Source: an uncultured Candidatus Saccharibacteria bacterium
GTDB taxonomy: Bacteria; Patescibacteriota; Doudnabacteria; UBA920
DNA: 64,000 nt
Assembly (NCBI GenBank): GCA_964631145.1
Contig: CAZVXT010000002.1
Span: 1,140-65,139 of the forward strand
Direction of reading: 5' to 3'
The position numbers and the translations under genes were made by a program. Below the pieces are notes generated by a model. It had not been told where the DNA came from, did not search any database, and saw nothing but the letters and a program-made list of their open reading frames with translations. Positions 6,910-64,000 of the stretch are shown here, piece after piece (within the stretch, counting starts at the first letter, position 1; every line of letters starts with the position of its first letter).

Positions 6910-6942
6910 CAGCCGATAGCTCTACCGCTGAGCTACTCCCGA
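6868..6942 (-). tRNA. tRNA-Asn (anticodon GTT), 75 nt with encoded CCA.
   Basis: The reverse complement is TCGGGAG-TA-GCTC-AGCGGTA-GAGC-T-ATCGG-CTGTTAA-CCGAT-CGGTC-CTGGG-TTCGAAT-CCCAG-CTCCCGA-G-CCA. This is a canonical cloverleaf with a 7-nt anticodon loop and GTT at positions 34-36. Confidence 0.9.
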
Positions 6943-29353: not shown

Positions 29354-29740
29354 TGGTGGAGATGGCGGGAGTTAAACCCGCGTCCAAAATTTCTTAACCA
29401 ATTTATTGTTCACAAGATTAGTTCGTTATTTTACTGCATGCCATTCAACGAACAACTAAGCATACAGTTTAAAATACTTCTTTTCGATATTGTTACGTAT
29501 TTCAAATAACAATATTATAGCTTCTATTGTCTAGCTAATCTTTACCCAAAGCAGAGGTAAAGGGCTAGTGCACGAACCAATGTTAGGCAAGTGCAGGTTG
29601 TAGGGTTGCATTAGAAAATGCAGCTACAACTTTGTTCCATGCGTTAGCACGTAAGATTGCTTGTAAGATTAATGAGCTTGCAAGCTGGCTCATCTTGCAT
29701 ATAAAGAGATTGTAAAATTCTGTCAAAATCCAACATCCCC
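29354..29740 (-). ncRNA. ssrA: tmRNA (SsrA).
   Basis: The 5' end GGGGAUGUUGGAUUUUGACAG matches the consensus GGGGcuGAUUcUGGAUUCGAC. The 3' tRNA-like end GGACGCGGGUUUAACUCCCGCCAUCUCCACCA contains the T-arm and ACCA. A candidate tag ORF ...ANAWNKVVAAFSNATLQPALA-UAA is present in the middle. Confidence 0.8.
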
Positions 29741-51206: not shown

Positions 51207-51575
51207 ATGTACAGTAAGTTTGAAAAAAATAAACTTATTAAAATAGCTACTTTTGTAGTGCTTTTTTTGTTGTCAATACAAATAATATCTTTTCCAAAAT
51301 ATACATTGGCTGCTGTTTTGAGCAAGCCATTTGGGGGAGTAATTATATCGTATGTTCCTTCAACACCGCTATGTCCAGTTCCTCATACTTTGATCTATGA
51401 TTTTAAAACAAGGTTGTCATTTGGGATTGCTGTTTTGCCATCGTCTGTAGTTTATGCGTATGCAAATTTATTTAAGCCTGGTACATTTGTTTTGGGTAAA
51501 GCTGGTACAGTAAGCATTACATGCGCATTGCCATATTTAATTTATCCAATTATACAAGTAGGTACTTCTAAATAA
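51207..51575 (+). CDS. Small membrane/secreted protein, the first gene of the T4SS-like operon.
   Basis: 122 aa with an N-terminal TM 'IATFVVLFLLSIQIISF' and a second hydrophobic stretch 'FGIAVLPSSVVYAYA'. Confidence 0.4.
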   Translation: MYSKFEKNKLIKIATFVVLFLLSIQIISFPKYTLAAVLSKPFGGVIISYVPSTPLCPVPHTLIYDFKTRLSFGIAVLPSSVVYAYANLFKPGTFVLGKAGTVSITCALPYLIYPIIQVGTSK

Positions 51576-51580
51576 AAAAA

Positions 51581-52276
51581 ATGAAATTATTTATTGAAAA
51601 ATTAAATAATGCTGGTTTTAATAAAAACCATTTCCAATTAATTGGATTGGCAATGATTGTTTTTGTCATTCTAATTTTTGCTAAATCAGAAATTAGTTTG
51701 AAGTCTCTAGTTACTCAAGCCGATTCTAAACCGGAGATACTTACTTATGAAGATGCTTTAAAGCAAGTATCATCTAATAATAAAGTTAACTCAGATCAGT
51801 TTAATAAAGATTTGGAAAATCAATTTGCTCTTCTTGATAGAGGGCAAGCAGATGGAAAGGTGTTAGGAGAGGCGATTGGGATTGGTGCAATTCCAGATTC
51901 TTCTGAGTTAGCTGTGCCCGAAGCTTTTAATGAATATCCGGTTGTAACTTCAAATGATAATTCTTCAGTTGCAATTGCTAATTATCAAAATGCCATTACG
52001 AATATCGAAGCAAGATATGGCACAGTAGAGATGTTGGCGGATTTAAATTCGGATGATAAGCAAATGATAAATTCTAGTTTGGCAAAGTGGAAAAATTTAT
52101 TATTAGAAATTTCAAAAATAAATGTTCCATCTAGTTTGGCAGAAAGCCATAAAAATAAAATCGTATACTACTATGCAATTATGAAAACCGGAGAAGTGTA
52201 TGCAGGGCAACTAGATGAATCTAAATTATCGTATTACTTAAAAATAATGTTAAGCTACGCAAATAAGGTGCAGTAA
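51581..52276 (+). CDS. Bitopic membrane protein: a short cytoplasmic N-terminus, one TM, and a ~190-aa extracytoplasmic domain. Possibly a VirB8-like scaffold.
   Basis: The TM is 'LIGLAMIVFVILIFA'. The topology and size match VirB8/TcpC-like components, but the assignment rests on architecture only. Confidence 0.35.
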   Translation: MKLFIEKLNNAGFNKNHFQLIGLAMIVFVILIFAKSEISLKSLVTQADSKPEILTYEDALKQVSSNNKVNSDQFNKDLENQFALLDRGQADGKVLGEAIGIGAIPDSSELAVPEAFNEYPVVTSNDNSSVAIANYQNAITNIEARYGTVEMLADLNSDDKQMINSSLAKWKNLLLEISKINVPSSLAESHKNKIVYYYAIMKTGEVYAGQLDESKLSYYLKIMLSYANKVQ

Positions 52277-52277
52277 A

Positions 52278-54269
52278 ATGAAAAACAAAAATAAAAAAAT
52301 TCAAAAAATAATTGCTAGCTCATTATTATTACTTGTAATGTTGCCAACTTTTGTATCTGCTCAAAGTTTGCTTGGAGGATTGGATACTGTACCTGTTAAT
52401 GATGGGAGTCTTAATTCTAAGTTTGGATTTGACCAAGGGGCTTTGGGAGGGACAGTTGGCACTATCGTTAAAATAGCAGACCAGATCAACAAGATTAAGG
52501 CAGGGCTATCTTCAGTGTGTGCTAAAACAATTGAAGCCTTGGGTACTGCTACAGATGTGAGTGATTATATTTCTAAAGCACAAAATAATCCAGCTTTCTG
52601 GCAACAGATTTTAGGTGGCAGTGCGGTAGAGGCTACAACTATTACAGTTCAAATCCAATTTTTGAATGCAACTTTTGCGTGTGTTAAAAATTTTAATGAA
52701 AGCTTAAAGGATGTAAAGCCTGGAACTTTTGAAGAGTCTCAAAACTTGCAAAAACTTATTACTCACTACGGAGATATACAAACTCAATTGAGTGGGAAGA
52801 TTGAAAGCTTAAATGCGAGAGCGAGTGCAAGCTGGAAAGATGTGTTAAAAGCTGTGATGGTTAAAATGATTTTAACCTTGAACAAAAATTTAACTACAGA
52901 ACTAGTGAATGGTTTAGTTCAGAAATACAGAATAGAGGACTACTTGGCATATGGAGATGCGGTAGCTACTCAGTTGTATTCTATGAAATACATTAATGAA
53001 AATTATTCTGGTGATGCGCGTACTCAAATGATGTTGCGTTCTTTAGTACAAAGCCAGAAGTTTCCAGAAAAAGCAGCGACTGCGATGACCTTTGCAAATC
53101 AAATGGCACAAGAGCAGTTAAATAAATCTTGCGATGGTGTAAAGGATATAGAATCATCAGATACAGAAAGTTATCTAAGATGTATATCAGCATATGGACA
53201 AGCAGAAACTAGCCCCGCTTATCAATACATGCAAGCTTTAGATAAAACTTCTGTGGTATTAGCAGCTGCAAAAAATAGTACTGCGCAAGAAATTGCAACT
53301 AGTAATGGTTTTGCACCGCCTCGCGATTGTAGTGGGTCTGTTGCAGCGCAGCAACAAATTGATAGTAGTTATGATCAGGCAGTAAGTGATTTGGAAACTG
53401 CAAAAAGAACTACAGAGCTATTGTTAGATGCTTATACCAAAAACCCAACTCCTGCTCAAGAGGCAGAGTACAATAAAGCTTTTGCCGCAGAGCAAATTGC
53501 AGAAGACAAATTAAACAATTTAAGCAAAAACACTAAAACCCCTGTCATAGATATTTGTAAAGCAATTACCGCACCAAGCAATTTTGTTTCTGATCAGATT
53601 AATAATTTCTTAAAACAACATTTGGATCAAGCTTCCCAATTAAAGAGTGATAACTTGCCATTTTATGCAAACTTCTTAAGCGACGTTGCAAGTAACTTTT
53701 TAACCAACTTAATTGTGGGTGGAAAAAGCACTGGTCAAGTATTTAAGGAAGCTGGTTATCAGGCATTAGGCGGCACAATTGTGGCATTGTCTGACGCTCA
53801 AAAGCAAGCTGCTAAAAATACAACTGGTCCAATTACTCCAGGTAAAATAACCGAAGGGTATGTAAAGATTTATGCTAGAGAAGTGGTTAATAGTGATTTG
53901 ACCGGTGATAATACCACTACTTTAAGTGCTGGCAAGAACTATGCGATCGTCGTAGACTTTAAAGACTTGGTTAGTACTGGTGACGCTAACTATACACCAG
54001 TAAGAATGGTTGTTAGCGGAGTAGCGGGCGGTCCGTTAAACTTTGATATTAGCTCTGCAGAATTGAATAGCGGTACTGTCACTTTTGATGTGAGTAACGC
54101 TACAAAATCCTTTACAGTTAAAGTTTTGTTATATTCTAAGTTGGCTGGTACACCAGAAAACTTAATTAGAGCTGAAGGTTGGAGTCAAAACTTTGGAGTT
54201 GGGGTTGTACAAGGCGTAAGTACTGTAAGTTTTTATCCACGCGGTACTTTTGCCCCTAGAGGGAATTAA
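52278..54269 (+). CDS. Large secreted protein of 663 aa in the T4SS-like operon.
   Basis: The signal peptide is 'IIASSLLLLVMLPTFVSAQS'. It starts 1 nt after the previous stop. A terminator hairpin lies at 54301-54332. Confidence 0.5.
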   Translation: MKNKNKKIQKIIASSLLLLVMLPTFVSAQSLLGGLDTVPVNDGSLNSKFGFDQGALGGTVGTIVKIADQINKIKAGLSSVCAKTIEALGTATDVSDYISKAQNNPAFWQQILGGSAVEATTITVQIQFLNATFACVKNFNESLKDVKPGTFEESQNLQKLITHYGDIQTQLSGKIESLNARASASWKDVLKAVMVKMILTLNKNLTTELVNGLVQKYRIEDYLAYGDAVATQLYSMKYINENYSGDARTQMMLRSLVQSQKFPEKAATAMTFANQMAQEQLNKSCDGVKDIESSDTESYLRCISAYGQAETSPAYQYMQALDKTSVVLAAAKNSTAQEIATSNGFAPPRDCSGSVAAQQQIDSSYDQAVSDLETAKRTTELLLDAYTKNPTPAQEAEYNKAFAAEQIAEDKLNNLSKNTKTPVIDICKAITAPSNFVSDQINNFLKQHLDQASQLKSDNLPFYANFLSDVASNFLTNLIVGGKSTGQVFKEAGYQALGGTIVALSDAQKQAAKNTTGPITPGKITEGYVKIYAREVVNSDLTGDNTTTLSAGKNYAIVVDFKDLVSTGDANYTPVRMVVSGVAGGPLNFDISSAELNSGTVTFDVSNATKSFTVKVLLYSKLAGTPENLIRAEGWSQNFGVGVVQGVSTVSFYPRGTFAPRGN

Positions 54270-54478
54270 GAACTTTAAAAACATAACAATAAAAACCGCT
54301 GATCATATAATCAGCGGTTTTTCTTATAAAAGATTTTTTAGATTGAAGAGTATATTTTTTGAATTTTCAATCCTTAAAATTGATTTTAAATTATATAAAA
54401 TTTAATTTGGGTTTTACACATCTAATATGGTATAATTATTTTAAGTTTTGAGATAAATTTTACCAAAATTTTAAGACC

Positions 54479-57400
54479 GTGAATCAGAAACAAACATCAA
54501 AATTACACAATAAATTTAGAAACAAATTTTTGATTTTTAAGAAGCCTTTACTCCTATTTTTGGCTTTTGTTTTGTTAATGCCGATTGTTATAACATTGAC
54601 AAACACTGCAAAAGCCGGGGCTTCTTTTAATTTTTCAGAAAGCGGAACTTTATCTGACGAATCAAAGACAGGAAATTGCCCTGTTAACAAAATGCCTTTT
54701 AAATCTGTGATTGAAGTGAATAAGCCTCAAAATGCAGGTGGACTGCTTTCTAATAGCACTTTTACTACAGGTATCAATCAGGATTTGAAGTTTTATGTTA
54801 GCATGGAGGTGACAAATAATACTGGAATAAGAGGTGCGGTAGATAGTGTATCTGGTGGTGCGGCAAACTTTCAAACGATAGTTGATAACTGTAAGGCTCA
54901 GGCAGAAGCTGGCAAGATTAACCTAAGGGCAGTTATAGATTATAAAAGATTTACAGTAGCTGGTAATAACCCTTATATTGCTGCTGGTCAATTGCGTACC
55001 CCAGCAGTAACAATGACTTTTGGGAATGGTAAATTAGAAGCCAATTTAACAACTAAAATCCCAACTTCAAGTTTGGGTGGAGCTATTGTTGGTGACAATA
55101 GTCCTAGTTCGACAGGTGATAGAATAATTGTTTCATTTGAGGTCACTGCAAATGTAGGGACTACTTGGAATCGAAATATTAGTGGAACTGGAATAACTGG
55201 ACTACTTCAAAAGGCTAATGTAAATGATGAATCTGTAACTCAGGCTGTAAATCAATCTAAAGAAGTTGGAACTAGTACAACTGTGGATTTGCAAGACGTT
55301 GCAAAATCTTTAACTTTGGATAGTACAAAAGATAAAAAAGGATTTGAAACAGTTTATAGATACGCTGAAGATCAAAAGGATACAGATTCTGCAAGGCAAG
55401 GTAAAATTCAAATTCCGTTTTATTTAAGCTGGAAAGGTACTGGATCACCTCCGTTGTTAAATTCTCCTTTGATTAGGCAACAAGACGCTCTTTTTAAAGG
55501 GGCTTTAGATGGCTTCTACTTGGGTATCTCTAAAGAGTATAAAAATGACAAATCAACTCCGCAATGTGGTAGTACTATCACGGATTTTTGGTGTACTTCA
55601 TTAATTTTAGATCAGGCTCCAAAACAAGCTAGAGAATTAGATGTTCAAGACACTTTGAATTTATCTTATGCAAATATATCTGCTTTAGACACAGATACCG
55701 CAGCTGCTTCTACTGCAACCACCAAACCAAAGTTGGTCAAAAAAGCCGTTGCTTTGCCTATGGTATCAGTTAAGGCAAGCAATGATAATGCAGTAATGAC
55801 TAATAATTCATCTGCTATTACTATCGAAGTTTATGCAACCTTTGAAGATTTGAAAAAAGCTTGCCAAGAAGCAGATGCAAATGCTGATTGTTCTAAACCA
55901 GAAAATTTATATTACGGACATAAATATACAGAAGTAACAACTACAGGAGCCCAAGATTCTAAAGATACAACCGCTAAAACTTTAATTGATTTTCTTCGTC
56001 GCGTTGTTGTTGATATTACATTGCTGCTTACAGGATTAATTTATAAGATTTTTTCATTCATTTTAGTCCCAGTATTAAAAGCACTCTTAAGTATTCATCC
56101 ATATGAAGATAAATTTGTAGATTTTATCTACCCTGGTTGGGTTATTATTAGAAACCTGACTAACATTGCATTTATCATTGCCCTTCTTGTTATGGGGTTA
56201 AAAGTTATGTTTAGACAAGAAGGGGTAGGTAATAGCCAAGGGTTTTTAGTTCGCCTAATTTTAATGGCATTGTTAGTTAATTTTAGCTTAGTTATAGGTC
56301 AAAGCGTGGTAGCCATAGCAGACACGGTACAGTCTCAATTTTTACCAGAAAATAATAAGGTACTCGAAGTTCTGGGTCAGAAATTAATGGTAGACCCTGT
56401 AATTATATTTAGAGATAGCTTAAATGACCCTAATAATAATTTTTCTGAAACCCCTGCTGCAAGTGATATTTTTAAACCAATAGTTTTGTTGGTGTTATCT
56501 ATAGCTTCATTTTTTGCTTTTGTTGCATTAGCTGGTCTTATCTTTGTACGTATTATTATGCTTTGGGTTTTGTATATGGTTTCGCCATTTGCATATTTTG
56601 GTAGACTCCTTAAAGAAACGCAAAAGTATGCTGATCAATGGTGGAGTGAATTTATAAAGCAGACCATGACAGTACCAATACTCGCTTTCTTCTTAAATAT
56701 CACAGCTTTAATGGCAACTACATTTGCTGTTCGCACAGGAAGCTCTGTAACTGTTTCTCCGGCAAACGAATATCTGCTTGGCGGTATTACTGGAGATTTG
56801 GCAACTTTTACCATCACAGTTATTTCTCATTTTGTTGTTTTGATATTTTTGGGCGCAGGAATGGTCTATGCAACATCTGCTGGAGGTATTGGCTCTAAAG
56901 CGGTTGTTAAATATGCTAAGAAAGGGTTTGATAACTTTACTACCAGACCTGCTAAATGGGCATATAATCAAGCTAAAGATTTGGGTAAGTATGGAGTTAA
57001 ACAAGGCAAACTATTTGGAAAAGACGCTGCAAATACTTTTTACGAACGCAATATCGCTGGTGGTATGCTTGACCTTAAAAAATGGAAAGATAATTGGAAG
57101 TCTTCTGTTGCAGAAACTACTAAAAGACGAAAAGCAGAGAGATTGGCACGTAATGCTCAAAAGCTTGGACCTGGAAACTTATTGCCTAAAGATGCGACAA
57201 GTTGGGCTGAGTTAGGTAAAAATTGGAAACAAGCTGGCAAGTATTTAGCAGCAAAAATTAAAGGACGTGGACCTGATGGCTTATTAAATAATGCTAATAA
57301 ATTCCAAGAAGCATCTCAGATATTAACAGATAATGATCGTGCTGCGTTAATGAGCAGATATGCAAATCATGTAAGTGACAAAGCAGATATTGATCATGAA

Positions 57401-58597
57401 AAGTATTTATTAGAAGATCACGGTGCTATTACTATTGAAAGAGCAACAAAATATAAAGATAATCTCCAAAAAATGGCAGATTCTGCAGACAAGCAGGCTA
57501 AAGATTTAGAAAAAGGTATGCAGAAAAAAATTAATAATGGCACTATTGATGCTAATGGAGAAGAAGCGACTAAGACTAAAAAGAAAATAGCTGATTTAAG
57601 ACAAGATGCACAGCAGTACCAAGATGGGGCTAAGAATCTTGACGCTGCTATTGGTAGAAGTCAGGCTGCAGGCAGCAATGAAGTATCATTAGAAAATAAA
57701 AATGTAGATTTAAATTTGGTCAGCCCGGTATTAAAAGTTGATCAATTATCTATAGACTTAGAGGATGATAGTAAAAAAGCAGCTAAAGTTATCAAAGCAG
57801 ATAAAGAATCTATAGATCTGGATGATAAACGTCGAGAGCAATATGGTATTCAACATATTACTGAAGATCAACAGAAAGATTTTAGGAGGCAAAGTGATTC
57901 TTATCGAGATGAAGCTAAGAGTGTAAATATGGTCACTTCAAAAGAAGGTCAAGCTGCACTTAATATACTTAAGAAAGATGCAGCAGAAAAAATTGAAAAA
58001 ATTGATGATGTGGATGGATTAAAAGAAATTTATAAAGAAGCATTGGCTAAAAATAACTCCGCGTTGGCAGCTGCCATAGCAGAAAAAATGGCTAAAATAG
58101 GTGGATTGGATGACTTGCTTAAGATGAGGGGATTTGATAATAACCTTAAAGATTTTCAAAGATTTATTGATCAAGAGTTTAAAAACTTGGCACCTCAGTT
58201 AAGGTTGCAATTAGGATCGCAAATTTCTTATATTGCTAAAGGTAATGGAAATGCTGTGTTAGGAAATGCAACAACATACGAATATAATAAAGGCACAGGA
58301 GAGGTTGTTGTTAATTGGTCTCAAGAAGGATTGGCTAGTAAAAAGTTGGATGCTAAGCAAAAAAGCGATCGTCCAGATGTTGCTTCTAAGTATAAAAAGA
58401 CAGATATTTCTAAAGAAGCTGGGGGACTATGGTATTTGAACCAAGGTTTTGTGGATGCTATGAATAACTGGAATCCTGCTGCAGTAGACAACTTTGTTAA
58501 GGATGCACCAACTTCATTAGTGAAACATATATTGGACTCGAAAGGTAGCGAGCAAATCAAAACTAGTGTGAAAAATATTTTAAGCAGCGTAGTATAA
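54479..58597 (+). CDS. Giant VirB6/TrbL-like polytopic membrane protein of 1372 aa. It has an N-terminal ~480-aa exported domain, a central multi-TM channel-like region, and a ~570-aa charged coiled-coil C-terminal domain.
   Basis: It has a GTG start and a signal/TM 'LLLFLAFVLLMPIVITLTNTAKA'. At least 7 hydrophobic helices span residues ~500-800 (e.g. 'VVDITLLLTGLIYKIFSFILVPVL' and 'PIVLLVLSIASFFAFVALAGLIFVRIIMLWVLYMVSPFAYF'). The C-terminus is Lys/Glu/Asp-rich. Confidence 0.5.
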   Translation: MNQKQTSKLHNKFRNKFLIFKKPLLLFLAFVLLMPIVITLTNTAKAGASFNFSESGTLSDESKTGNCPVNKMPFKSVIEVNKPQNAGGLLSNSTFTTGINQDLKFYVSMEVTNNTGIRGAVDSVSGGAANFQTIVDNCKAQAEAGKINLRAVIDYKRFTVAGNNPYIAAGQLRTPAVTMTFGNGKLEANLTTKIPTSSLGGAIVGDNSPSSTGDRIIVSFEVTANVGTTWNRNISGTGITGLLQKANVNDESVTQAVNQSKEVGTSTTVDLQDVAKSLTLDSTKDKKGFETVYRYAEDQKDTDSARQGKIQIPFYLSWKGTGSPPLLNSPLIRQQDALFKGALDGFYLGISKEYKNDKSTPQCGSTITDFWCTSLILDQAPKQARELDVQDTLNLSYANISALDTDTAAASTATTKPKLVKKAVALPMVSVKASNDNAVMTNNSSAITIEVYATFEDLKKACQEADANADCSKPENLYYGHKYTEVTTTGAQDSKDTTAKTLIDFLRRVVVDITLLLTGLIYKIFSFILVPVLKALLSIHPYEDKFVDFIYPGWVIIRNLTNIAFIIALLVMGLKVMFRQEGVGNSQGFLVRLILMALLVNFSLVIGQSVVAIADTVQSQFLPENNKVLEVLGQKLMVDPVIIFRDSLNDPNNNFSETPAASDIFKPIVLLVLSIASFFAFVALAGLIFVRIIMLWVLYMVSPFAYFGRLLKETQKYADQWWSEFIKQTMTVPILAFFLNITALMATTFAVRTGSSVTVSPANEYLLGGITGDLATFTITVISHFVVLIFLGAGMVYATSAGGIGSKAVVKYAKKGFDNFTTRPAKWAYNQAKDLGKYGVKQGKLFGKDAANTFYERNIAGGMLDLKKWKDNWKSSVAETTKRRKAERLARNAQKLGPGNLLPKDATSWAELGKNWKQAGKYLAAKIKGRGPDGLLNNANKFQEASQILTDNDRAALMSRYANHVSDKADIDHEKYLLEDHGAITIERATKYKDNLQKMADSADKQAKDLEKGMQKKINNGTIDANGEEATKTKKKIADLRQDAQQYQDGAKNLDAAIGRSQAAGSNEVSLENKNVDLNLVSPVLKVDQLSIDLEDDSKKAAKVIKADKESIDLDDKRREQYGIQHITEDQQKDFRRQSDSYRDEAKSVNMVTSKEGQAALNILKKDAAEKIEKIDDVDGLKEIYKEALAKNNSALAAAIAEKMAKIGGLDDLLKMRGFDNNLKDFQRFIDQEFKNLAPQLRLQLGSQISYIAKGNGNAVLGNATTYEYNKGTGEVVVNWSQEGLASKKLDAKQKSDRPDVASKYKKTDISKEAGGLWYLNQGFVDAMNNWNPAAVDNFVKDAPTSLVKHILDSKGSEQIKTSVKNILSSVV

Positions 58598-58600
58598 ATT

Positions 58601-59605
58601 ATGAACAATGAAGAACTATTAAAAGATGCTTTACAAAGATTGAATGCCAAAAGTGCAGTCGAGCTTTTAAATATGTCTGAAAAAAATCCAAGCATGAACC
58701 TGGATAATATTACTAAGATAAGATTATCTTATGTAAGGATGAATAGTCTTTCGTTGAACAGGCTTACAGATTTGATGCAGCAATCCATTTTGCAAAGCTA
58801 TACTCTGCCAGATTTTCTATTATCAGAAAAAATAGAAACATTTGCAGAGCTGTTATTTGATCCAGAGCAAGAAATTGAGCTTTACGATCGTATAGGATTT
58901 ATTTTGAGCGGCAGCACTGAACGCGTGGTAACGCAAAGTATTACTATTAATGGTAAGGCGGAAGTTGCTACAATTAGCAATTTTATTGCTGACTATATTA
59001 ATACCTTTAATGAAGTTGACCGAGATGCTTTAACTCAACTTAAATATATTAACAATTCTCCTAATGTTAAAGATTTATTAGAAGTTCAGAGAGCTGTAAT
59101 CAAAGATTTGCTTAAGCTATATGATAAAGCTGAAGATATGGTAGTAATGTGGCAAACTCTTCCTACTGTAGAAAATCCAAAACAAATTGAAGAGTTGTTT
59201 GATATACAAGATTATTACCCAGGAATAGAAAAAGCAGAAGAATCAACTGGTTCTAAGGATGCATTTAATGATCAGAGTCAAAATCAAAATGTAATAAAAG
59301 AAGAGCCGGCTAAGGCTGTTGTGCATCAACGCTCAGAACAGCCTGTACTTCCAAAACGTGTTGTCCAACCTATCCCAACAAGGGTAAATGAGCCTCGTGT
59401 TATAGAGGCTTTGACTCCTCAAAATAAAACAAGTACCCCAGCCATGGATGTCTTACGAGCAAATTATTCTCCAAAAGGAATTATGCAGAGCAATGGTACT
59501 AATATAAAAATTAAAGATGAAGTAGACAGATTACAGGAAGATCAAAAAAAATTTGCTGATATTCAAAAAAAGTTAGATGAATTAAAGACTAGAAAGTCTA
59601 AATAA
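58601..59605 (+). CDS. Hypothetical T4SS-operon protein.
   Basis: 334-aa ORF located 4 nt after the previous gene, with a charged C-terminal coiled coil. Confidence 0.45.
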   Translation: MNNEELLKDALQRLNAKSAVELLNMSEKNPSMNLDNITKIRLSYVRMNSLSLNRLTDLMQQSILQSYTLPDFLLSEKIETFAELLFDPEQEIELYDRIGFILSGSTERVVTQSITINGKAEVATISNFIADYINTFNEVDRDALTQLKYINNSPNVKDLLEVQRAVIKDLLKLYDKAEDMVVMWQTLPTVENPKQIEELFDIQDYYPGIEKAEESTGSKDAFNDQSQNQNVIKEEPAKAVVHQRSEQPVLPKRVVQPIPTRVNEPRVIEALTPQNKTSTPAMDVLRANYSPKGIMQSNGTNIKIKDEVDRLQEDQKKFADIQKKLDELKTRKSK

Positions 59606-59613
59606 ATTTTGTT

Positions 59614-60408
59614 ATGAACGAATTAAAAGTTCGACAATTAAAACAGCTGATAAATATTAGTACCGTGTTAAGCCCTCAAGAAAAACAAGAATGGCTTGGT
59701 CTTTTAGAATTGATGAATGATAAACAACTTACTGAATTAGAGCATATATTGGTGCCTAAACCTGCTGTAGAGCCTAAAGTAGAAACAGGTGAAGTAAAGA
59801 CACCGTCTTTAAGCCATATTTCTAGTTTGCCAAATAAAGTGACTATTCCTCAAAACTTTATTAAGTCCACAATTCCTATTAAAGAATCTACTACAGAACC
59901 GATAAAAGTTGCTGTAAATCCTTTAGAAGAAAAACAAAAACAAGCTATCATTAGCAATGAGTCAAATATGGCAGTTGCAGATGGGAAAAATATTGAAGTT
60001 TCTGCTGGGGTGCAACCAAAAAAACAAATTTCAATAATTAGAACTCCTCCTAAAACACCTGATATTAAAGCTGATTTAAATAATATCGAAAGAAATAATA
60101 CAGATATCCCTGAGGTTATACCACCTCCTGCAGAGTTATCAATCGAAGAATTAGAAAATTTATCAGTATCAAATCTAAGAAATTGGGGAGCAAAAGCATT
60201 TATAAAAGTCTTAAGTAAAACAGCATCTGTATATGGTTATTTTGTAACATTGCAAGAATTTGAAAAGAGCCAGTTATATAAAGATTATTTAGAGTATGGT
60301 AGAACCGGCTTGATGATGAATGGTGATTCTAATAAATTAAAGTTAACTCATTCGGAATTTGAGACAATCATAGATTCTATTGCTGCGATGCAGGTTAATA
60401 AGACTTAA
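59614..60408 (+). CDS. Hypothetical T4SS-operon protein.
   Basis: 264-aa ORF. Confidence 0.45.
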   Translation: MNELKVRQLKQLINISTVLSPQEKQEWLGLLELMNDKQLTELEHILVPKPAVEPKVETGEVKTPSLSHISSLPNKVTIPQNFIKSTIPIKESTTEPIKVAVNPLEEKQKQAIISNESNMAVADGKNIEVSAGVQPKKQISIIRTPPKTPDIKADLNNIERNNTDIPEVIPPPAELSIEELENLSVSNLRNWGAKAFIKVLSKTASVYGYFVTLQEFEKSQLYKDYLEYGRTGLMMNGDSNKLKLTHSEFETIIDSIAAMQVNKT

Positions 60409-60454
60409 AATGGTATAATTATTAAGGAGATGTTTATTTAAATTATAAGTAATT

Positions 60455-60901
60455 ATGCAGTTTCCTGTACCACAATTTACAGATGTAGAGGATAAAATTA
60501 TTGCCGGACTTACATTTAAGCAGTTTGGTATTATTTTTGGTGCCGCAGTATTTACATTTGTTATTTATGTTATAACTAAGAACATTCCTATTACCATAGG
60601 CTTTGGAGTATTAACTGGACTTCCTTCATTGGCATTAGTATTTGGTAAGCTCAATGGTAGACCTTTGTATGCTAGCGCCGGAGCATTTATTCAATATTTA
60701 TTTGGCGCAAAAGTGTATACATATCATAAAGCTGGATACAAAGAAGTAGAAATAAATACAGAGATACCTAAAGCAAAACCGGAAGTAGAGAAGATAGATC
60801 GATCTCCTTTAAAGTTGAAAGAACTAACTTATGCATTAGAACAAGGCAGAGAAGAAGAAAATAAAATTTTAGATATTATTAATAAAGATAAGCAAAAATA
60901 G
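60455..60901 (+). CDS. PrgI-family / VirB3-like small membrane protein.
   Basis: 'DVEDKIIAGLTFKQFGIIFGAAVFTFVIYVI' matches the PrgI-family N-terminal motif (..EDKIIgGLTlRQ..). It has two TMs and sits immediately upstream of the VirB4 module, as in Gram-positive T4SSs. Confidence 0.55.
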   Translation: MQFPVPQFTDVEDKIIAGLTFKQFGIIFGAAVFTFVIYVITKNIPITIGFGVLTGLPSLALVFGKLNGRPLYASAGAFIQYLFGAKVYTYHKAGYKEVEINTEIPKAKPEVEKIDRSPLKLKELTYALEQGREEENKILDIINKDKQK

Positions 60902-60906
60902 CTTAC

Positions 60907-61587
60907 ATGGCAGAAAAGAAAAACCAAAACCAAGGACAATCTTCAACTCAAGAATTTTTACAAGTTTCGGAAATTAGAGATAATATTATTATCTTAAAAG
61001 ATGGAACTCTGCGTGCTGTATTAGCTGTTTCTAGCACTAATTTTGATTTAAAGAGCGAAGAAGAACAAAATGCTTTGATTTATTCATATCAGAGATTTTT
61101 AAATTCGCTTGAGTTTAGTATTCAGATTTTGATGCAGAGTCGAAAAATGGAAATTGCTGACTACACAGAAAAGCTTAGGCAGATTATGGATAAGCAGACA
61201 ACCGAGCTTATGAGAATGCAAACCGCAGAATATATAGATTTTATAGATAGGCTCGTAGAATCTGCAAATGTCATGAATAAAAGTTTTTATGTAGTCGTTC
61301 CTTATGATATGAGCGTAAATCCAGGAACAACAAGCTTTTTTAGTAAATTATTTGGAAGCGGTAAAACAAAAGAAATCGAAGATAAAAGAGTAAATCTAGA
61401 AACGTATGGCAAGCAGTTAGACGAACGCGTTACGACAATCGAAAATAATTTAGCAGGCTGTGGTTTAAAAGTTATGAGACTTCAAACAGGGCAATTGATA
61501 GAGTTAATTTATAATTCTTACAATTTTAGTGCAGGTCCTTCTATAGATGCTAGCCAGCTTTCGCAAATCAATATTAAAGCACAGTAA
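60907..61587 (+). CDS. Protein resembling the N-terminal domain of Gram-positive VirB4 (PrgJ/ConE/TraE). It is encoded separately from the ATPase.
   Basis: 'VSEIRDNIIILKDGTLRAVLAVSSTNFDLKSEEEQNALIYSYQRFLNSLEFSIQIL' resembles the N-terminal segment of VirB4-family ATPases. Its stop lies 2 nt before the ATPase ATG. The combined length (226+614 aa) matches a full VirB4, with the Walker A at a position equivalent to residue ~490. Confidence 0.45.
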   Translation: MAEKKNQNQGQSSTQEFLQVSEIRDNIIILKDGTLRAVLAVSSTNFDLKSEEEQNALIYSYQRFLNSLEFSIQILMQSRKMEIADYTEKLRQIMDKQTTELMRMQTAEYIDFIDRLVESANVMNKSFYVVVPYDMSVNPGTTSFFSKLFGSGKTKEIEDKRVNLETYGKQLDERVTTIENNLAGCGLKVMRLQTGQLIELIYNSYNFSAGPSIDASQLSQINIKAQ

Positions 61588-61589
61588 TT

Positions 61590-63434
61590 ATGGGACTATT
61601 TTCATTAAATCAAACTGATTTAGATAAAAAAAAGGCGGAGTTAGCCAATTTAAAAGGGCAAATTTCTGCTGATCAAAAATTATCTGAAGTTGAAAAAGAA
61701 TATCAGGAAGGTATTACACAGCTTCAAGATTTGTTAGCCCCAGCTTCTTTAAAGTTTACTGGTTCTTCTTTCGAATTAAACGGTAAGTTTGGACGCAGCT
61801 TTTTTACTTTGGCTTATCCTAGATTTTTATCTTCCAATTGGCTTTCATTTATTATAAATTCTGAAAGTGCTTTAGATGTATCTATGTTTATCTACCCAAT
61901 AGATTCTGAGATTGTTTTAAAAAAGCTAAAGTCAAAAGTTGGAGAGATTGGCTCGCAGATCATGATTGAGCAAGAAAAAGGGTTGGCTCGCAACCCGATG
62001 TTGGAAACTGCTTATCATGATGTTGAGGATTTACGTGACCAATTACAGCAAGGTACCGAGCATTTCTTTAGATTTGGATTGTATTTTACTTTGTATTCCG
62101 ATAGTTTGGAAGAATTAGATAAGAACTCAAAAATATTAGAAAGCGCCCTTGGGGCTAAGTTAGTTGTAACTAAGAGAGCAATGCTTGCAATTGAACCAGG
62201 CTTTAATTCAACATTGCCTTTAGGACTTGATCAGCTAAATGTTGCAAACAACCTCAATACAAGTCCTTTATCAACGACATTTCCTTTTGTATCTTCTGAT
62301 TTAACTGGTAATGATGGTATTTTGTATGGAGTTAACAGGCATAATAATAGTTTAATTTTGTTTGATCGTTTTCAGATGGAAAATGCTAATTTTGTGGTTT
62401 TTGCTAAGTCCGGTGCAGGAAAAAGTTATGCTGTAAAACTAGAAATTTTGCGATCTTTAATGTTAGGTATAGAAATTATTGTCATAGATCCAGAAAATGA
62501 ATATCAGCATTTAGCCGAAGCTGTAGGTGGTACTTATATAAATATATCTTTAAATTCTGATTTTCGTGTTAATCCATTTGATTTGCCAATCGGTATTGCG
62601 GATGAAGACCCTGCAGATACTTTACGAAGTTCTGTAATTAACTTGATGGGCTTGATGGGGCTTGTATTGGGTAAGCTTGATCCTTCAGAGGAAGCAATTT
62701 TAGATAAAGCTATTTGGCAAACTTATGCTAAAAAAGATATTACCGAAAATACTGATTTTAGAAGTGCAGAAATGCCAATTATGAGCGATTTAATTGAAGT
62801 GCTTTCAGGTATGGTAGGTGGAGAAAGTTTGGCTCTTAGATTAGGTAAATTTACTGAAGGGACTTTTTCTGGATTGCTAAATCAACAAACCAACGTGGTT
62901 TTGCAAAATCAACTTTTGGTCTTTTCTATTAGAGATCTTGAAGATCAACTTCGTCCAATAGCTATGTATATTATTTTAGGACATATTTGGAATGTTGTTA
63001 GAAGTGAGCTTAAAAAGCGTATTTTGGTTTTGGATGAAGCCTGGTTGATGATGCAGCATGAAGATAGCGCTCGTTTTGTTTTTGGTATCGCCAAGCGTGC
63101 ACGTAAATACTACCTAGGTTTAACAACTATTACTCAGGATGTGGCGGATTTTATGGCTAGTCCATATGGAAAACCTATTGTTACCAACTCATCCATACAG
63201 CTATTATTGAAGCAAAGCCCTGCGGCAATTGATGTTGTTGCAGAAACCTTCTTTTTGACTGAAGGTGAAAAATATTTATTACTCGAGAGTGATGTTGGTG
63301 AAGGGATATTTTTTGCTGGATTAAAGCACGCAGCAATAAAAATTTATGCTTCTTATGTCGAAGATCAAATTATTACTACTGATCCAAAACAATTATTAGA
63401 AATAGAAGCCAGTAAAGAAGACTTTAATAATTAG
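61590..63434 (+). CDS. VirB4/TrbE/CagE-family type IV secretion ATPase (C-terminal 614 aa).
   Basis: The Walker A is 'FVVFAKSGAGKSYAV' and the Walker B is 'RILVLDEAWLMM'. 'TITQDVADF' and a CagE_TrbE_VirB-like region lie upstream. Confidence 0.85.
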   Translation: MGLFSLNQTDLDKKKAELANLKGQISADQKLSEVEKEYQEGITQLQDLLAPASLKFTGSSFELNGKFGRSFFTLAYPRFLSSNWLSFIINSESALDVSMFIYPIDSEIVLKKLKSKVGEIGSQIMIEQEKGLARNPMLETAYHDVEDLRDQLQQGTEHFFRFGLYFTLYSDSLEELDKNSKILESALGAKLVVTKRAMLAIEPGFNSTLPLGLDQLNVANNLNTSPLSTTFPFVSSDLTGNDGILYGVNRHNNSLILFDRFQMENANFVVFAKSGAGKSYAVKLEILRSLMLGIEIIVIDPENEYQHLAEAVGGTYINISLNSDFRVNPFDLPIGIADEDPADTLRSSVINLMGLMGLVLGKLDPSEEAILDKAIWQTYAKKDITENTDFRSAEMPIMSDLIEVLSGMVGGESLALRLGKFTEGTFSGLLNQQTNVVLQNQLLVFSIRDLEDQLRPIAMYIILGHIWNVVRSELKKRILVLDEAWLMMQHEDSARFVFGIAKRARKYYLGLTTITQDVADFMASPYGKPIVTNSSIQLLLKQSPAAIDVVAETFFLTEGEKYLLLESDVGEGIFFAGLKHAAIKIYASYVEDQIITTDPKQLLEIEASKEDFNN

Positions 63435-63442
63435 TTATCAAA

Positions 63443-64000
63443 ATGTCAATTGAGGATAATAATGCAATAACTGATAATTCTGTGGTAGAATCTCCAAATA
63501 ATTCTGGAGATTCTTTTGTAGACGACTCTGTAGATTTAATAGATAATCAACCTTCTGGACAGAAGGGGTTTTATGATATTGATACACAAAATCCAAGTAA
63601 GTGGGATATGGCTAAAGCTGCCGCATTTAGAAAGACTAGGCAAAAGTTGATGCGTGCTCCTATGGAGAAATTAGGAGAACAAGTGTTGGGTGATAAGTCA
63701 GGATTTTTGGATGGGCGCGAAACCCCCAGAGAAAAAGCTAAGGAGATTGCTCGTCAAAAAGCCCGTGATTTTGCTAAAAATAAACTAGCAAACAAAATTG
63801 GTAATGAGGGGATTAAAAAAGGTTTAGAAAAAGGATTATCTAAAGGAGCAAGTAAGTTAGCTAAAGATGGGGCAAAAAAACTTGGGAAGGAAGCTGGTAA
63901 AAAAGTTGCAGAAGAAGGCGTAAAGATGGCTGCTAAAGGTACTGCTCAGGCAGCTACCAAAGGGCTTCAAAGCATTATTTCTGGAGCAGCGGTTGCTTCT
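63443..64000 (+). CDS. Hypothetical protein, 5' part only. It has an acidic N-terminus and a Lys/Ala/Gly-rich repeat region, and runs off the window.
   Basis: It is open from ATG 63443 to the window end. The product begins MSIEDNNAITDNSVVESP... and continues ...KGLEKGLSKGASKLAKDGAKKLGKEAGKK... Confidence 0.4.
   Translation, partial: MSIEDNNAITDNSVVESPNNSGDSFVDDSVDLIDNQPSGQKGFYDIDTQNPSKWDMAKAAAFRKTRQKLMRAPMEKLGEQVLGDKSGFLDGRETPREKAKEIARQKARDFAKNKLANKIGNEGIKKGLEKGLSKGASKLAKDGAKKLGKEAGKKVAEEGVKMAAKGTAQAATKGLQSIISGAAVAS

What the first reader, a model, noticed from the sequence alone, without database searches (positions are those of the whole stretch)
60907..63434. VirB4 encoded as two adjacent ORFs (N-terminal 226 aa + ATPase 614 aa) with tight coupling
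The 226-aa protein has the sequence character of the VirB4 N-terminal domain (LKDG...DL.SEEEQ...YQ.FLN...F.IQI). Its TAA stop lies 2 nt before the ATG of the ATPase ORF, which is in another frame. The ATPase Walker A is at residue ~265, whereas full-length VirB4s carry it near ~430-490, so the first ORF supplies the missing N-terminus. This is either a genuine split VirB4, which would be mechanistically interesting for membrane/VirB3 docking, or a frameshift (pseudogenisation or sequencing error).
Basis: partly seen in the sequence, partly recalled or inferred. Interest (0 to 1): 0.6.

Follow-up and report, generated by a model that had tools for sequence, protein, structure and literature searches.

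The report
Two-gene VirB4 ATPase, a known arrangement
The motor ATPase (VirB4) of this ultra-small bacterium's type IV secretion system really is encoded as two separate genes, but this is the normal, conserved and already published arrangement in its phylum and in some Gram-positive plasmids, not a sequencing error or a dying gene.

Summary
ORF1 (60907-61587, 226 aa) ends in TAA 2 nt before the ATG of ORF2 (61590-63434, 614 aa), which lies in another frame.

The "genuine split" reading is right and the "frameshift or error" reading is refuted.
- ORF1 has thousands of stand-alone homologues of about 205-250 aa in Patescibacteria (CPR).
- In 73 of 80 species-representative genomes it is followed by the ATPase gene. 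It is never fused there.
- Junctions range from a 4-nt overlap to more than 500 nt, and all three frame offsets occur about equally.
- In about 12 species an unrelated small gene sits between the two ORFs.

ORF1 and ORF2 match adjacent, non-overlapping parts of full-length VirB4 models. The ORF1 model matches only the R388 VirB4 (TrwK) among solved structures. A CPR lineage (Colwellbacteria type) carries the two parts fused, and that fused model aligns end to end with TrwK.

Firmicute plasmids (pGO1/pSK41 TrsD-TrsE, pXO1, Geobacillus) are split at the same point.

The arrangement is published. TrsD homologues next to VirB4 are the commonest T4SS component in Patescibacteria (Microb Genom 2025), and ORF1 belongs to Pfam PF26593 "TraC-like". 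Verdict: real but ordinary, low interest. The secondary re-fusions are a small extra.

The parts
54479..58597 (+). Context: 1372-aa polytopic membrane protein, VirB6/TrbL-like. It is the first gene of the tightly packed block that ends with ORF2.
   Evidence: Weak Pfam TrbL/VirB6 match, E 1.7e-3, residues 567-790. The same gene order occurs in the closed CPR genome CP064996.1.
58601..60408 (+). Context: two ORFs of unknown function (334 aa and 264 aa) between the VirB6-like gene and the PrgI-like gene.
   Evidence: No family match. Counterparts of 327 and 347 aa occupy the same position in CP064996.1.
60455..60901 (+). PrgI-family (VirB3-like) membrane protein, 148 aa, ending 5 nt before ORF1. 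Proposed membrane partner of ORF1.
   Evidence: - Pfam PrgI, E 1.2e-7, 32.6 bits against a cut-off of 27.
- Hydrophobic stretch at about residues 15-66.
- A PrgI-like ORF lies just upstream of the ORF1 homologue in at least 74 of 80 species loci.
- The pairing persists where the ATPase gene is elsewhere.
60907..61587 (+). ORF1, 226 aa. Stand-alone TrsD-like / 'TraC-like' (Pfam PF26593) protein, the detached N-terminal sub-domain of VirB4. Soluble, with no transmembrane segment.
   Evidence: - NCBIfam matches to the N-terminal parts of three full-length VirB4 models and to TrsD/TraD.
- PF26593 is precomputed for the identical protein.
- AlphaFold model with pLDDT 81; its only specific PDB matches are TrwK/VirB4 chains.
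- No hydrophobic segment: maximum 19-residue Kyte-Doolittle hydropathy average 0.95.
- 72 invariant columns among 16 homologues, extending to the C-terminus.
61585..61592 (+). Junction TAA-TT-ATG: ORF1 stop, 2-nt spacer, ORF2 start, frame offset +2. This spacing would permit termination-reinitiation coupling.
   Evidence: - Sequence read directly.
- No Shine-Dalgarno-like motif upstream, but only 5 of 33 long ORFs in the window have one.
- No terminator-like site between the ORFs, and the promoter-like matches in 54000-64000 do not exceed the shuffled expectation.
61590..63434 (+). ORF2, 614 aa. The rest of VirB4: the second half of the N-terminal domain (about residues 45-250) plus the RecA-like ATPase domain.
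   Evidence: - NCBIfam CD1110-family VirB4, 350.1 bits against a cut-off of 325, model positions 159-728 of 752.
- Pfam P-loop_TraG E 8e-25; CagE_TrbE_VirB and the C-terminal third of TraC_F_IV (model positions 290-375 of 375) in residues 63-213.
- PDB matches: 4AG5 VirB4 C-terminal domain E 2e-44; TrwK residues 301-735 aligned to ORF2 140-563.
62403..62426 (+). Walker A motif AKSGAGKS (ORF2 residues 272-279).
   Evidence: Pattern search. The equivalent G460/G462/K463/S464 are nearly invariant in the fused homologues.
63021..63038 (+). Walker B motif ILVLDE (ORF2 residues 478-483).
   Evidence: Pattern search. D667/E668 are nearly invariant in the fused homologues.

Best explanation
The two ORFs are the two pieces of one VirB4 ATPase, naturally and stably encoded as separate genes in a chromosomal type IV secretion system of a Patescibacteria (CPR) bacterium.

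**Shown**
- ORF1 is homologous to the first ~150-200 residues of full-length VirB4.
- ORF2 is the colinear remainder: the second half of the N-terminal domain plus the Walker A/B ATPase domain.
- The split is conserved across the phylum and shared, at the same breakpoint, with TrsD/TrsE-type Firmicute plasmids.
- Some CPR lineages carry the two pieces fused.

**Inferred**
- The two polypeptides are made from one operon, possibly with translational coupling across TAA-TT-ATG.
- They associate non-covalently to rebuild the VirB4 N-terminal domain.
- ORF1 is the part that contacts the PrgI/VirB3-like membrane protein encoded just upstream, tethering the ATPase hexamer to the membrane channel. In the R388 system VirB3 wraps the VirB4 N-terminal domain.
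- ATP hydrolysis by ORF2 then powers assembly and/or transport by the T4SS. That system is essential for epibiotic growth in the one CPR species tested.
For: **Colinearity**
- In three independent full-length VirB4 models ORF1 and ORF2 match adjacent, non-overlapping segments: CD1110 positions 8-119 then 159-728; Mbov_0397 93-233 then 263-893; TIGR00929 18-174 then 216-724.
- Against real fused Gram-positive VirB4s, ORF1's family profile maps weakly to residues 26-155 (8 bits or less, in an 11-sequence search). ORF2 starts at residue 198 or 216.

**Structure**
- The ORF1 model (pLDDT 81.3) has 14 top PDB hits, all TrwK/VirB4 chains (probability 0.96-1.0). Everything below has probability of at most about 0.2.
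- The model of the fused CPR protein P0343 aligns end to end with TrwK (query-normalised TM-score about 0.6, 800-889 aligned columns, E down to 5e-27).

**Conservation of the split**
- The best 120 relatives of ORF1 are all 225-239 aa.
- A second CPR group gives more than 7,800 stand-alone relatives; the 120 listed are 206-247 aa.
- There are 3,464 clusters at 50% identity.
- In 80 species loci none is fused. Junctions run from -4 to +691 nt, with frame offsets 21/23/29.
- Unrelated genes are inserted between the two ORFs in about 12 species.

**Natural fusions**
- At least 115 clusters of fused 775-807 aa proteins (Colwellbacteria type) carry PF26593 plus P-loop_TraG.

**Same breakpoint in Firmicutes**
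- ORF2 residues 39-49 align to residues 28-32 of the S. aureus TrsE, Geobacillus and Planococcus ATPases; for pXO1 the BLASTP alignment starts at ORF2 43 = residue 42. Each of these follows a TrsD-like gene.

**Link to PrgI**
- A PrgI-like gene lies immediately upstream in at least 74 of 80 loci.
- It stays paired with the ORF1 homologue in Peribacteria, where VirB4 is not nearby.
- In R388, VirB3 wraps the VirB4 N-terminal domain (PMC9259494).

**Literature**
- TrsD homologues are the most abundant T4SS component in Patescibacteria: 1,664 of 2,272 lie next to virB4, and the homologue in S. epibionticum is essential (PMC12102498).
Against: - No experiment or complex prediction here shows that ORF1 and ORF2 bind each other or PrgI. 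That step rests on homology, the natural fusions and gene order.
- The ORF1-to-VirB4 match is remote. Sequence E-values are 4e-10 to 7e-4 against family models, with no sequence hit in the PDB. Foldseek gives a query-normalised TM-score of only 0.35-0.44 and E of 1e-3 to 4e-2.
- ORF1 residues ~132-226 cover only about 40 positions of the fused Firmicute models, so this part is expanded or divergent.
- The fused model has moderate confidence (pLDDT 72.8, pTM 0.55).
- Translational coupling cannot be obligatory, because many relatives have long spacers or an intervening gene. In the Gracilibacteria-type loci the ATPase gene is not within 4 kb.
Confidence: 0.85

Rival explanations
1. A recent frameshift, pseudogenisation or sequencing/assembly error has broken what is really a single virB4 gene.
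For: - The ORFs are 2 nt apart in different frames.
- Fused versions exist in another CPR lineage.
- Two 600-aa relatives of the fused type (P0408, P0504) begin inside the last helix of the ORF1-type domain, so they do look like broken or miscalled fused genes. Such artefacts therefore exist elsewhere.
Against: - ORF1's C-terminus is conserved in sequence and position in all close relatives.
- 73 of 73 species loci with both genes are split, using many different junctions and all three frame offsets (21 are in-frame with an intervening stop), and some have whole genes inserted between them.
- A closed genome, CP064996.1, has the same split with a TAATG overlap.
- Two independently recorded contigs carry the identical protein.
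- ORF2 has its own ~45-residue N-terminal leader that the fused proteins lack.
Confidence: 0.01
2. A single fused VirB4 is produced from the two ORFs by programmed ribosomal frameshifting or stop-codon bypass at the junction.
For: The ORFs are adjacent with a very short spacer, and ORF2's frame is open for 4 codons upstream of its ATG.
Against: - There is no conserved slippery sequence or frame relation. Offsets 0, 1 and 2 occur 21, 23 and 29 times, and spacers run from -4 to more than 500 nt.
- ORF2 always has its own start codon.
- The genes are unlinked in Gracilibacteria-type genomes (PMC12102498).
Confidence: 0.02
3. ORF1 is an independent accessory protein (a TrsD-type paralogue derived from a VirB4 N-terminus) with its own role, and ORF2 alone is a functionally complete, naturally short VirB4.
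For: - TrsD is treated in the literature as a separate component with no assigned function.
- ORF1 homologues can be encoded away from virB4.
- Some carry long disordered C-terminal tails of 100-220 aa.
- ORF1 evolves faster than ORF2 in the same genomes (65-68% against 83-90% identity).
Against: - ORF1 and ORF2 are complementary, not redundant. They cover adjacent segments of full-length models with no overlap.
- The fused CPR proteins contain each segment exactly once and align with the whole of TrwK.
- ORF2 lacks the equivalent of roughly the first 160-200 residues of full-length VirB4.
Confidence: 0.1

Closest known systems
TrsD + VirB4 pair of Patescibacteria T4SS (Quinonero-Coronel et al. 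2025, Microb Genom, PMC12102498; essential locus of Southlakia epibionticum, Wang et al. 2023, PMC10633639)
   Same: - Same gene pair, order and context: VirB6-like, PrgI/VirB3-like, TrsD-like, VirB4.
- Same phylum.
- The nearest relatives are 59-75% (ORF1) and 83-90% (ORF2) identical.
   Different: Nothing substantive. The paper lists TrsD as a separate component with remote homology to the VirB4 N-terminus, and its main text does not use 'split', 'truncated' or a TrsD-VirB4 'fusion'. The fused Colwellbacteria-type genes and the shared breakpoint are described here, not there.
TrsD/TraD + TrsE/TraE of staphylococcal pGO1/pSK41-type plasmids, and the PrgI / small protein / DUF87 ATPase trios of pXO1, Geobacillus and Planococcus plasmids
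   Same: - Same three-gene module and the same breakpoint: the ATPases begin about 28-42 residues before the point where ORF2 residues 39-49 align.
- In a small neighbour-joining tree the split Firmicute ATPases and the CPR ATPases form one clade (bootstrap 100) that excludes two fused Firmicute VirB4s.
   Different: - Only 23-31% identity.
- The Geobacillus and pXO1 small proteins have a hydrophobic N-terminal stretch that looks like a membrane helix (judged by eye, not computed) and longer C-termini (304-318 aa). The Planococcus protein (344 aa) has a weak PrgI-like N-terminal region instead. ORF1 is soluble and 226 aa.
- They sit on conjugative plasmids rather than on a chromosome.
- ORF1 scores 39 bits against the NCBIfam TrsD/TraD model, whose cut-off is 200.
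Full-length (unsplit) VirB4: TrwK of R388 (PDB 7O41/8RTD), CD1110/PrgJ-type VirB4 of Gram-positive elements, and Colwellbacteria-type CPR VirB4
   Same: ORF1 plus ORF2 (840 aa together) cover the same domains in the same order. The fused CPR homologue models as a TrwK-like fold over its whole length.
   Different: - One polypeptide instead of two.
- The fused CPR forms have a ~20-residue linker where the split form has ORF1's ~16-residue tail plus ORF2's ~45-residue leader.
VirB3-VirB4 fusion proteins and SCO6880-family proteins (other fusion/fission states of the same N-terminal module)
   Same: - They show that the VirB3 / VirB4 N-terminal / ATPase modules are recombined in different ways.
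- PrgI, ORF1 and ORF2 hit successive parts of the SCO6880 model: positions 11-80, 243-297 and 404-477 of 477.
   Different: These matches are weak (E 7e-4 to 0.04) and the architectures differ. No VirB3-VirB4 fusion was found in Patescibacteria by the 2025 survey.

Membership tests
VirB4-like conjugal transfer ATPase, CD1110 family (NCBIfam NF045971) | Whole-protein score at or above the curated cut-off (325 bits) | tested here: met
   ORF2 scores 350.1 bits, E 2.5e-104, on model positions 159-728 of 752. The first ~158 model positions are not in ORF2.
VirB4 (general) | RecA-like C-terminal ATPase domain with Walker A and Walker B motifs | tested here: met
   - AKSGAGKS at residues 272-279 and ILVLDE at 478-483.
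- Pfam P-loop_TraG E 8e-25.
- PDB 4AG5 VirB4 C-terminal domain E 2e-44.
VirB4 (general) | Complete N-terminal domain (TrwK residues 15-400) on the same polypeptide as the ATPase domain | tested here: not met
   The domain is divided. ORF1 carries the first part and ORF2 residues ~45-250 the second. Together the two ORFs cover it; neither does alone.
VirB4 family, TIGR00929 (VirB4_CagE) | Score at or above the curated cut-off (643 bits) | tested here: not met
   ORF2 scores 113 bits and ORF1 24 bits. This is a remote relationship to the proteobacterial-type model, as expected for monoderm-type VirB4.
TrsD/TraD family conjugative transfer protein (NCBIfam NF041427) | Score at or above the curated cut-off (200 bits) | tested here: not met
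   - ORF1 scores 39 bits, E 7e-10, on model positions 5-146 of 201.
- ORF1's family profile finds S. aureus TrsD at 19.6 bits.
- ORF1 is a homologue, not a member by NCBI's threshold.
TrsD/TraD family (functional definition) | Small stand-alone protein encoded between a VirB3-like gene and a short VirB4 ATPase gene | tested here: met
   The window order is PrgI-like, ORF1, ORF2. The S. aureus order is membrane protein, trsD, DUF87 ATPase.
Pfam PF26593 'TraC-like' | Match to the family model | tested here: met
   The hit is precomputed for the identical protein P0001 and for all listed homologues. The local Pfam copy does not report this model, so the match could not be recomputed here.
Patescibacteria T4SS locus (Quinonero-Coronel 2025) | VirB4 with TrsD, PrgI/VirB3 and a VirB6-like gene nearby, on the chromosome | tested here: met
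   All four are in one same-strand block, 54479-63434. Housekeeping neighbours (RadA, RecG) and synteny with closed genome CP064996.1 indicate a chromosomal location.

The most novel reading that the evidence does not exclude
The break point is an evolutionary hinge. One old fission is shared by pGO1/pXO1-type plasmids and CPR. At least two secondary re-fusions followed (the Colwellbacteria type, and P0385 with its long P/A-rich linker). In Gracilibacteria-type genomes the pieces are fully unlinked.

This would mean the detached N-terminal sub-domain is a functionally autonomous adaptor that stays with PrgI/VirB3, and whose copy number or timing can differ from that of the ATPase. For example, it might decorate only the VirB3-bound 'central' VirB4 subunits. 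CPR and pGO1 systems would then be natural split constructs for dissecting how VirB4 docks to the membrane.
Probability: 0.25. Interest if true: 0.45.

Novelty: already known. Interest (0 to 1): 0.22.

Why it matters
It settles an annotation question. The short "hypothetical protein" before virB4 in CPR genomes is the missing front end of VirB4. Neither gene should be flagged as a pseudogene or "corrected" into a fusion.

For T4SS biology it matters modestly. The CPR system is essential for the epibiotic lifestyle. A naturally two-piece VirB4, with natural fused controls in Colwellbacteria, offers a ready-made handle for testing which part of the N-terminal domain binds VirB3/PrgI and how the ATPase is recruited to the membrane.

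It does not reveal a new kind of system.

Tried and rejected
**Searches that gave nothing**
- A sequence search of the ORF1 family profile against PDB chains found only chance hits to thymidine kinase (E about 1). The link to TrwK needed the structure model.
- The local Pfam scan of ORF1 gave only sub-threshold noise (MCU; TraC_F_IV at E 0.05). PF26593 is not reported by the local copy.
- Foldseek output gives no target residue ranges. The part of TrwK matched by ORF1 is therefore inferred from colinearity, not read off.
- A complex prediction of ORF1 + ORF2 + PrgI was not possible with the single-chain tool. The natural fused homologue was modelled instead.
- An Rfam scan of the GC-rich spacer in L039 gave nothing meaningful.
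- The promoter/terminator scan of 54000-64000 showed no excess over shuffles and no terminator-like site between the ORFs.

**Arguments dropped**
- Lack of a Shine-Dalgarno motif before ORF2 as evidence for coupling. Only 5 of 33 long ORFs in the window have such a motif, so its absence says nothing.
- P0408 and P0504 (600 aa) as "split forms inside the fused clade". They start inside the ORF1-type domain's last helix, so they look like truncated calls of fused genes.

**Limits of the tree**
- The neighbour-joining tree has 30 sequences and an arbitrary root on one fused Firmicute protein. It suggests, but does not prove, that fusion is secondary.
Full report
**1. The observation**

The window holds ORF1 at 60907-61587 (226 aa, ATG start, TAA stop) and ORF2 at 61590-63434 (614 aa). 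They are separated by the dinucleotide TT, and ORF2 is in the +2 frame relative to ORF1. In ORF2's frame the nearest upstream stop is at 61575-61577, so only 10 nt are available for any frame-fusing indel. Walker A (AKSGAGKS) lies at ORF2 residues 272-279 and Walker B (ILVLDE) at 478-483.

**2. Local context**

The two ORFs close a tightly packed same-strand block:
- a 1372-aa VirB6/TrbL-like membrane protein (54479-58597);
- two ORFs of unknown function (334 and 264 aa);
- a 148-aa PrgI-family (VirB3-like) membrane protein (60455-60901), which scores 32.6 bits against a Pfam cut-off of 27;
- ORF1, then ORF2.

Intergenic gaps are 2-46 nt. No terminator-like site lies between ORF1 and ORF2, and the promoter-like matches across 54000-64000 do not exceed the shuffled expectation.

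The window is 34.6% G+C. It is identical to part of a metagenomic contig whose downstream genes include RadA and RecG. The closed 943-kb genome CP064996.1 has the same order, including those housekeeping neighbours. The locus is therefore chromosomal, in a Patescibacteria (CPR) bacterium. Its nearest species representatives are MAGs labelled Doudnabacteria, Saccharibacteria or Patescibacteria.

**3. What the two proteins are**

ORF2 passes the curated threshold of NCBIfam's CD1110-family VirB4 model (350 bits against 325), but it matches only positions 159-728 of 752. ORF1 matches positions 8-119 of the same model.

The same adjacent, non-overlapping pattern holds for two other full-length VirB4 models:
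- Mbov_0397 family: ORF1 at 93-233, ORF2 at 263-893.
- TIGR00929: ORF1 at 18-174, ORF2 at 216-724.

ORF1 also matches the TrsD/TraD family (E 7e-10), far below that model's cut-off.

Against real proteins, a profile of ORF1's family maps weakly (8 bits or less) to residues 26-155 of fused VirB4s from Paenibacillus (789 aa) and E. faecalis (799 aa). ORF2 begins to align at residues 198 and 216 of those proteins.

Against solved structures, ORF2 residues 140-563 align with TrwK residues 301-735. The TrwK N-terminal domain is residues 15-400 (PMC9259494). The break therefore lies inside the N-terminal domain, not at its border with the ATPase domain.

**4. Structure**

An AlphaFold2 model of ORF1 built on 58 homologues has mean pLDDT 81.3. 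Foldseek against the PDB returns 14 top hits, all chains of TrwK/VirB4 from the R388 cryo-EM structures:
- probability 0.96-1.0;
- E from 1e-3 to 4e-2;
- query-normalised TM-score 0.35-0.44.

Every hit below these has probability of about 0.2 or less. The match is specific but remote.

ORF1 has no hydrophobic segment: its maximum 19-residue Kyte-Doolittle hydropathy average is 0.95. The upstream PrgI-like protein has a hydrophobic stretch at about residues 15-66.

**5. Genuine split or error?**

ORF1 has 755 relatives in the 90%-clustered protein collection, and the best 120 are all 225-239 aa. Querying with a distant relative from Gribaldobacteria finds more than 7,800 further stand-alone proteins; the 120 listed are 206-247 aa. 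At 50% clustering there are 3,464 clusters. The C-terminal motif YNSYNF.AGP.IDASQL and the stop position are conserved.

In 80 GTDB species-representative loci:
- 73 have the ATPase gene downstream, and none is fused;
- 11 junctions overlap (ATGA or TAATG), 36 have 1-40 nt, 10 have 41-130 nt and 16 have more than 130 nt;
- frame offsets 0, 1 and 2 occur 21, 23 and 29 times.

In about 12 species the spacer holds an unrelated small gene, either a TIGR02436 four-helix-bundle protein or a TIGR04256 GxxExxY protein. In Altimarinota, Peregrinibacteria, Peribacteria and Gracilibacteria loci the ATPase gene is not within 4 kb. This agrees with the published exception for Gracilibacteria.

These facts exclude a sequencing error, a recent pseudogene and programmed frameshifting.

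**6. Natural fusions**

Two of the best 150 cluster representatives are long proteins (P0343, 797 aa; P0385, 898 aa) that contain the ORF1-type domain followed by the ORF2-type protein. P0343 lies next to a PrgI gene, close to dnaA, in a MAG.

Its relatives form at least 115 clusters of 775-807 aa, many labelled Colwellbacteria. Each carries both PF26593 and P-loop_TraG.

In the alignment the fused proteins join "YN.YNP" (the end of ORF1's domain) to "APA.." (ORF2 residue ~50) through about 20 residues. The split form instead has ORF1's short tail plus ORF2's ~45-residue leader.

A model of P0343 (pLDDT 72.8) aligns with whole TrwK chains over 800-889 columns. The TM-score is about 0.6 on both normalisations and E reaches 5e-27. 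ORF1 plus ORF2 therefore equal one complete VirB4.

**7. Relation to Firmicute systems**

The module PrgI / small protein / DUF87 ATPase is also found in:
- Geobacillus pGspE55-1 (318 + 636 aa);
- B. anthracis pXO1 (304 + 699 aa);
- a Planococcus plasmid (annotated TrsD, 344 aa, + 623 aa);
- a pGO1/pSK41-type S. aureus plasmid (TrsD 227 aa + ATPase 670 aa).

ORF2 residues 39-49 align to residues 28-32 of the TrsE, Geobacillus and Planococcus ATPases, and ORF2 residue 43 to residue 42 of the pXO1 ATPase by BLASTP. The breakpoint is therefore the same.

A small neighbour-joining tree of the ATPase part (30 sequences, 565 columns, 100 bootstraps) shows:
- all split Firmicute proteins grouped with CPR (bootstrap 100), apart from the two fused Firmicute VirB4s;
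- the fused Colwellbacteria clade (100) as sister to split Gribaldobacteria (87), inside otherwise split CPR.

This suggests one old fission and later re-fusions. The sampling and rooting are weak, so this is inference.

**8. How it probably works**

The shown points are the homology, colinearity, conservation, natural fusion and gene order set out above. The rest is inferred:
- The two products assemble non-covalently into a VirB4 protomer.
- ORF1 is the piece that meets PrgI/VirB3.

The second point rests on two observations. In R388, VirB3 wraps the N-terminal domain of the central VirB4 subunits, and that domain also mediates the central-outside dimer. A PrgI-like gene immediately precedes the ORF1 homologue in at least 74 of 80 loci. 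It stays with it in Peribacteria, where the next gene is dnaK and no VirB4 is near.

The TAA-TT-ATG junction would allow termination-reinitiation coupling. That cannot be essential, given the long spacers elsewhere, and Shine-Dalgarno motifs are rare in this genome anyway (5 of 33 long ORFs).

**9. Comparison with what is known, and novelty**

Quinonero-Coronel et al. (2025) report TrsD as the most abundant T4SS component in Patescibacteria:
- 2,272 homologues, of which 1,664 lie next to virB4;
- remote homology to the VirB4 N-terminus, for which they cite the 2014 classification of T4SS classes by VirB4 phylogeny (PMC4027160);
- the homologue in S. epibionticum is essential.

Pfam has a family for the domain (PF26593, "TraC-like"). 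The finding is therefore a correct rediscovery of a published, phylum-wide arrangement.

That paper's main text does not contain the words "split" or "truncated", and its only use of "fused/fusion" concerns VirB3-VirB4. Three points established here therefore appear to be small additions rather than a new kind of system:
- the explicit two-piece reading;
- the breakpoint shared with pGO1/pXO1-type plasmids;
- the fused Colwellbacteria-type genes.

**10. Verdict**

The split is real, conserved and functional-looking, and it is already known in kind. Interest is low (0.22). Confidence is about 0.85 that the two ORFs are the two halves of a working VirB4. The assembly and PrgI-docking steps are still only inferred.

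Noticed in passing
L033 4642-5052, L041, L046, L048, L051, L052, L060, L065, L068, L069, L071, L038 (spacer between the ORF1 and ORF2 homologues): In about 12 species a 120-140-aa gene is inserted between the two VirB4 pieces. It is either a TIGR02436 four-helix-bundle protein or a TIGR04256 GxxExxY protein. These small genes seem to colonise intergenic spots in CPR genomes.
   Followed up: partly
L039 4642-4845: The 203-nt spacer between the two genes has 53% G+C in an otherwise AT-rich genome. It has no convincing ORF and no meaningful Rfam match (only a sub-threshold CRISPR-repeat hit, E 0.35). It remains unexplained.
   Followed up: partly
P0343 (L089 544-2937) and relatives P0390-P0508; P0385: - Colwellbacteria-type CPR encode a fused, full-length VirB4 (775-807 aa, at least 115 clusters).
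- P0385 (898 aa) is a second fused type with a ~100-residue P/A-rich linker.
- A small tree suggests these fusions are secondary.
   Followed up: partly
P0253, P0267, P0291, P0306 (relatives of ORF1, 406-443 aa): Some stand-alone ORF1 homologues carry long (about 170-220 aa) P/Q/A/T-rich, apparently disordered C-terminal tails. Others (P0252, P0359) have similar N-terminal extensions.
   Followed up: no
L080 3243-6739 (Peribacteria); also L077-L079, L081: The PrgI-like and ORF1-like genes stay adjacent, but the next gene is dnaK and no VirB4 ATPase lies within 4 kb. The PrgI-ORF1 link is thus tighter than the ORF1-ORF2 link.
   Followed up: partly
L008 4689-7307 and L059 4680-8006: The ORF2 homologue's reading frame runs on to 872 and 1108 aa in these two species, instead of about 615. 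It may be fused to the downstream gene. Not examined.
   Followed up: no
P0408, P0504 (600-601 aa): These close relatives (77-88% identical) of the fused proteins start inside the last helix of the ORF1-type domain.
   Followed up: no
L085 1181-2215 (Planococcus plasmid 'TrsD', 344 aa): The first ~90 residues give a weak PrgI match (E 0.024), ahead of the TrsD-like region. This may be a VirB3-TrsD fusion, with the ATPase remaining separate.
   Followed up: partly
window 54291-54322: An uninterrupted 14-bp-stem hairpin (AAAAACCGCTGATC...GATCAGCGGTTTTT) flanked by A/T runs, terminator-like on both strands. It lies about 150 nt upstream of the VirB6-like gene and probably marks the start of the T4SS transcription unit.
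   Followed up: no
window 29354-29740 (-) and 6871-6942 (-): A tmRNA gene (108.6 bits) and one tRNA gene are the only Rfam matches above gathering score in the window.
   Followed up: no
window, whole: Only 5 of 33 long ORFs have a Shine-Dalgarno-like motif within 20 nt upstream. Nearly all large genes are on the + strand.
   Followed up: partly
window 51207-54269 and 63443-64000 (L001 301-3363 and 12537-13622): Three ORFs upstream of the VirB6-like gene (122, 231 and 663 aa), and the 361-aa ORF that starts 8 nt after ORF2 and runs off the window, have no Pfam match. They are syntenic in the relatives and may be further T4SS parts.
   Followed up: partly
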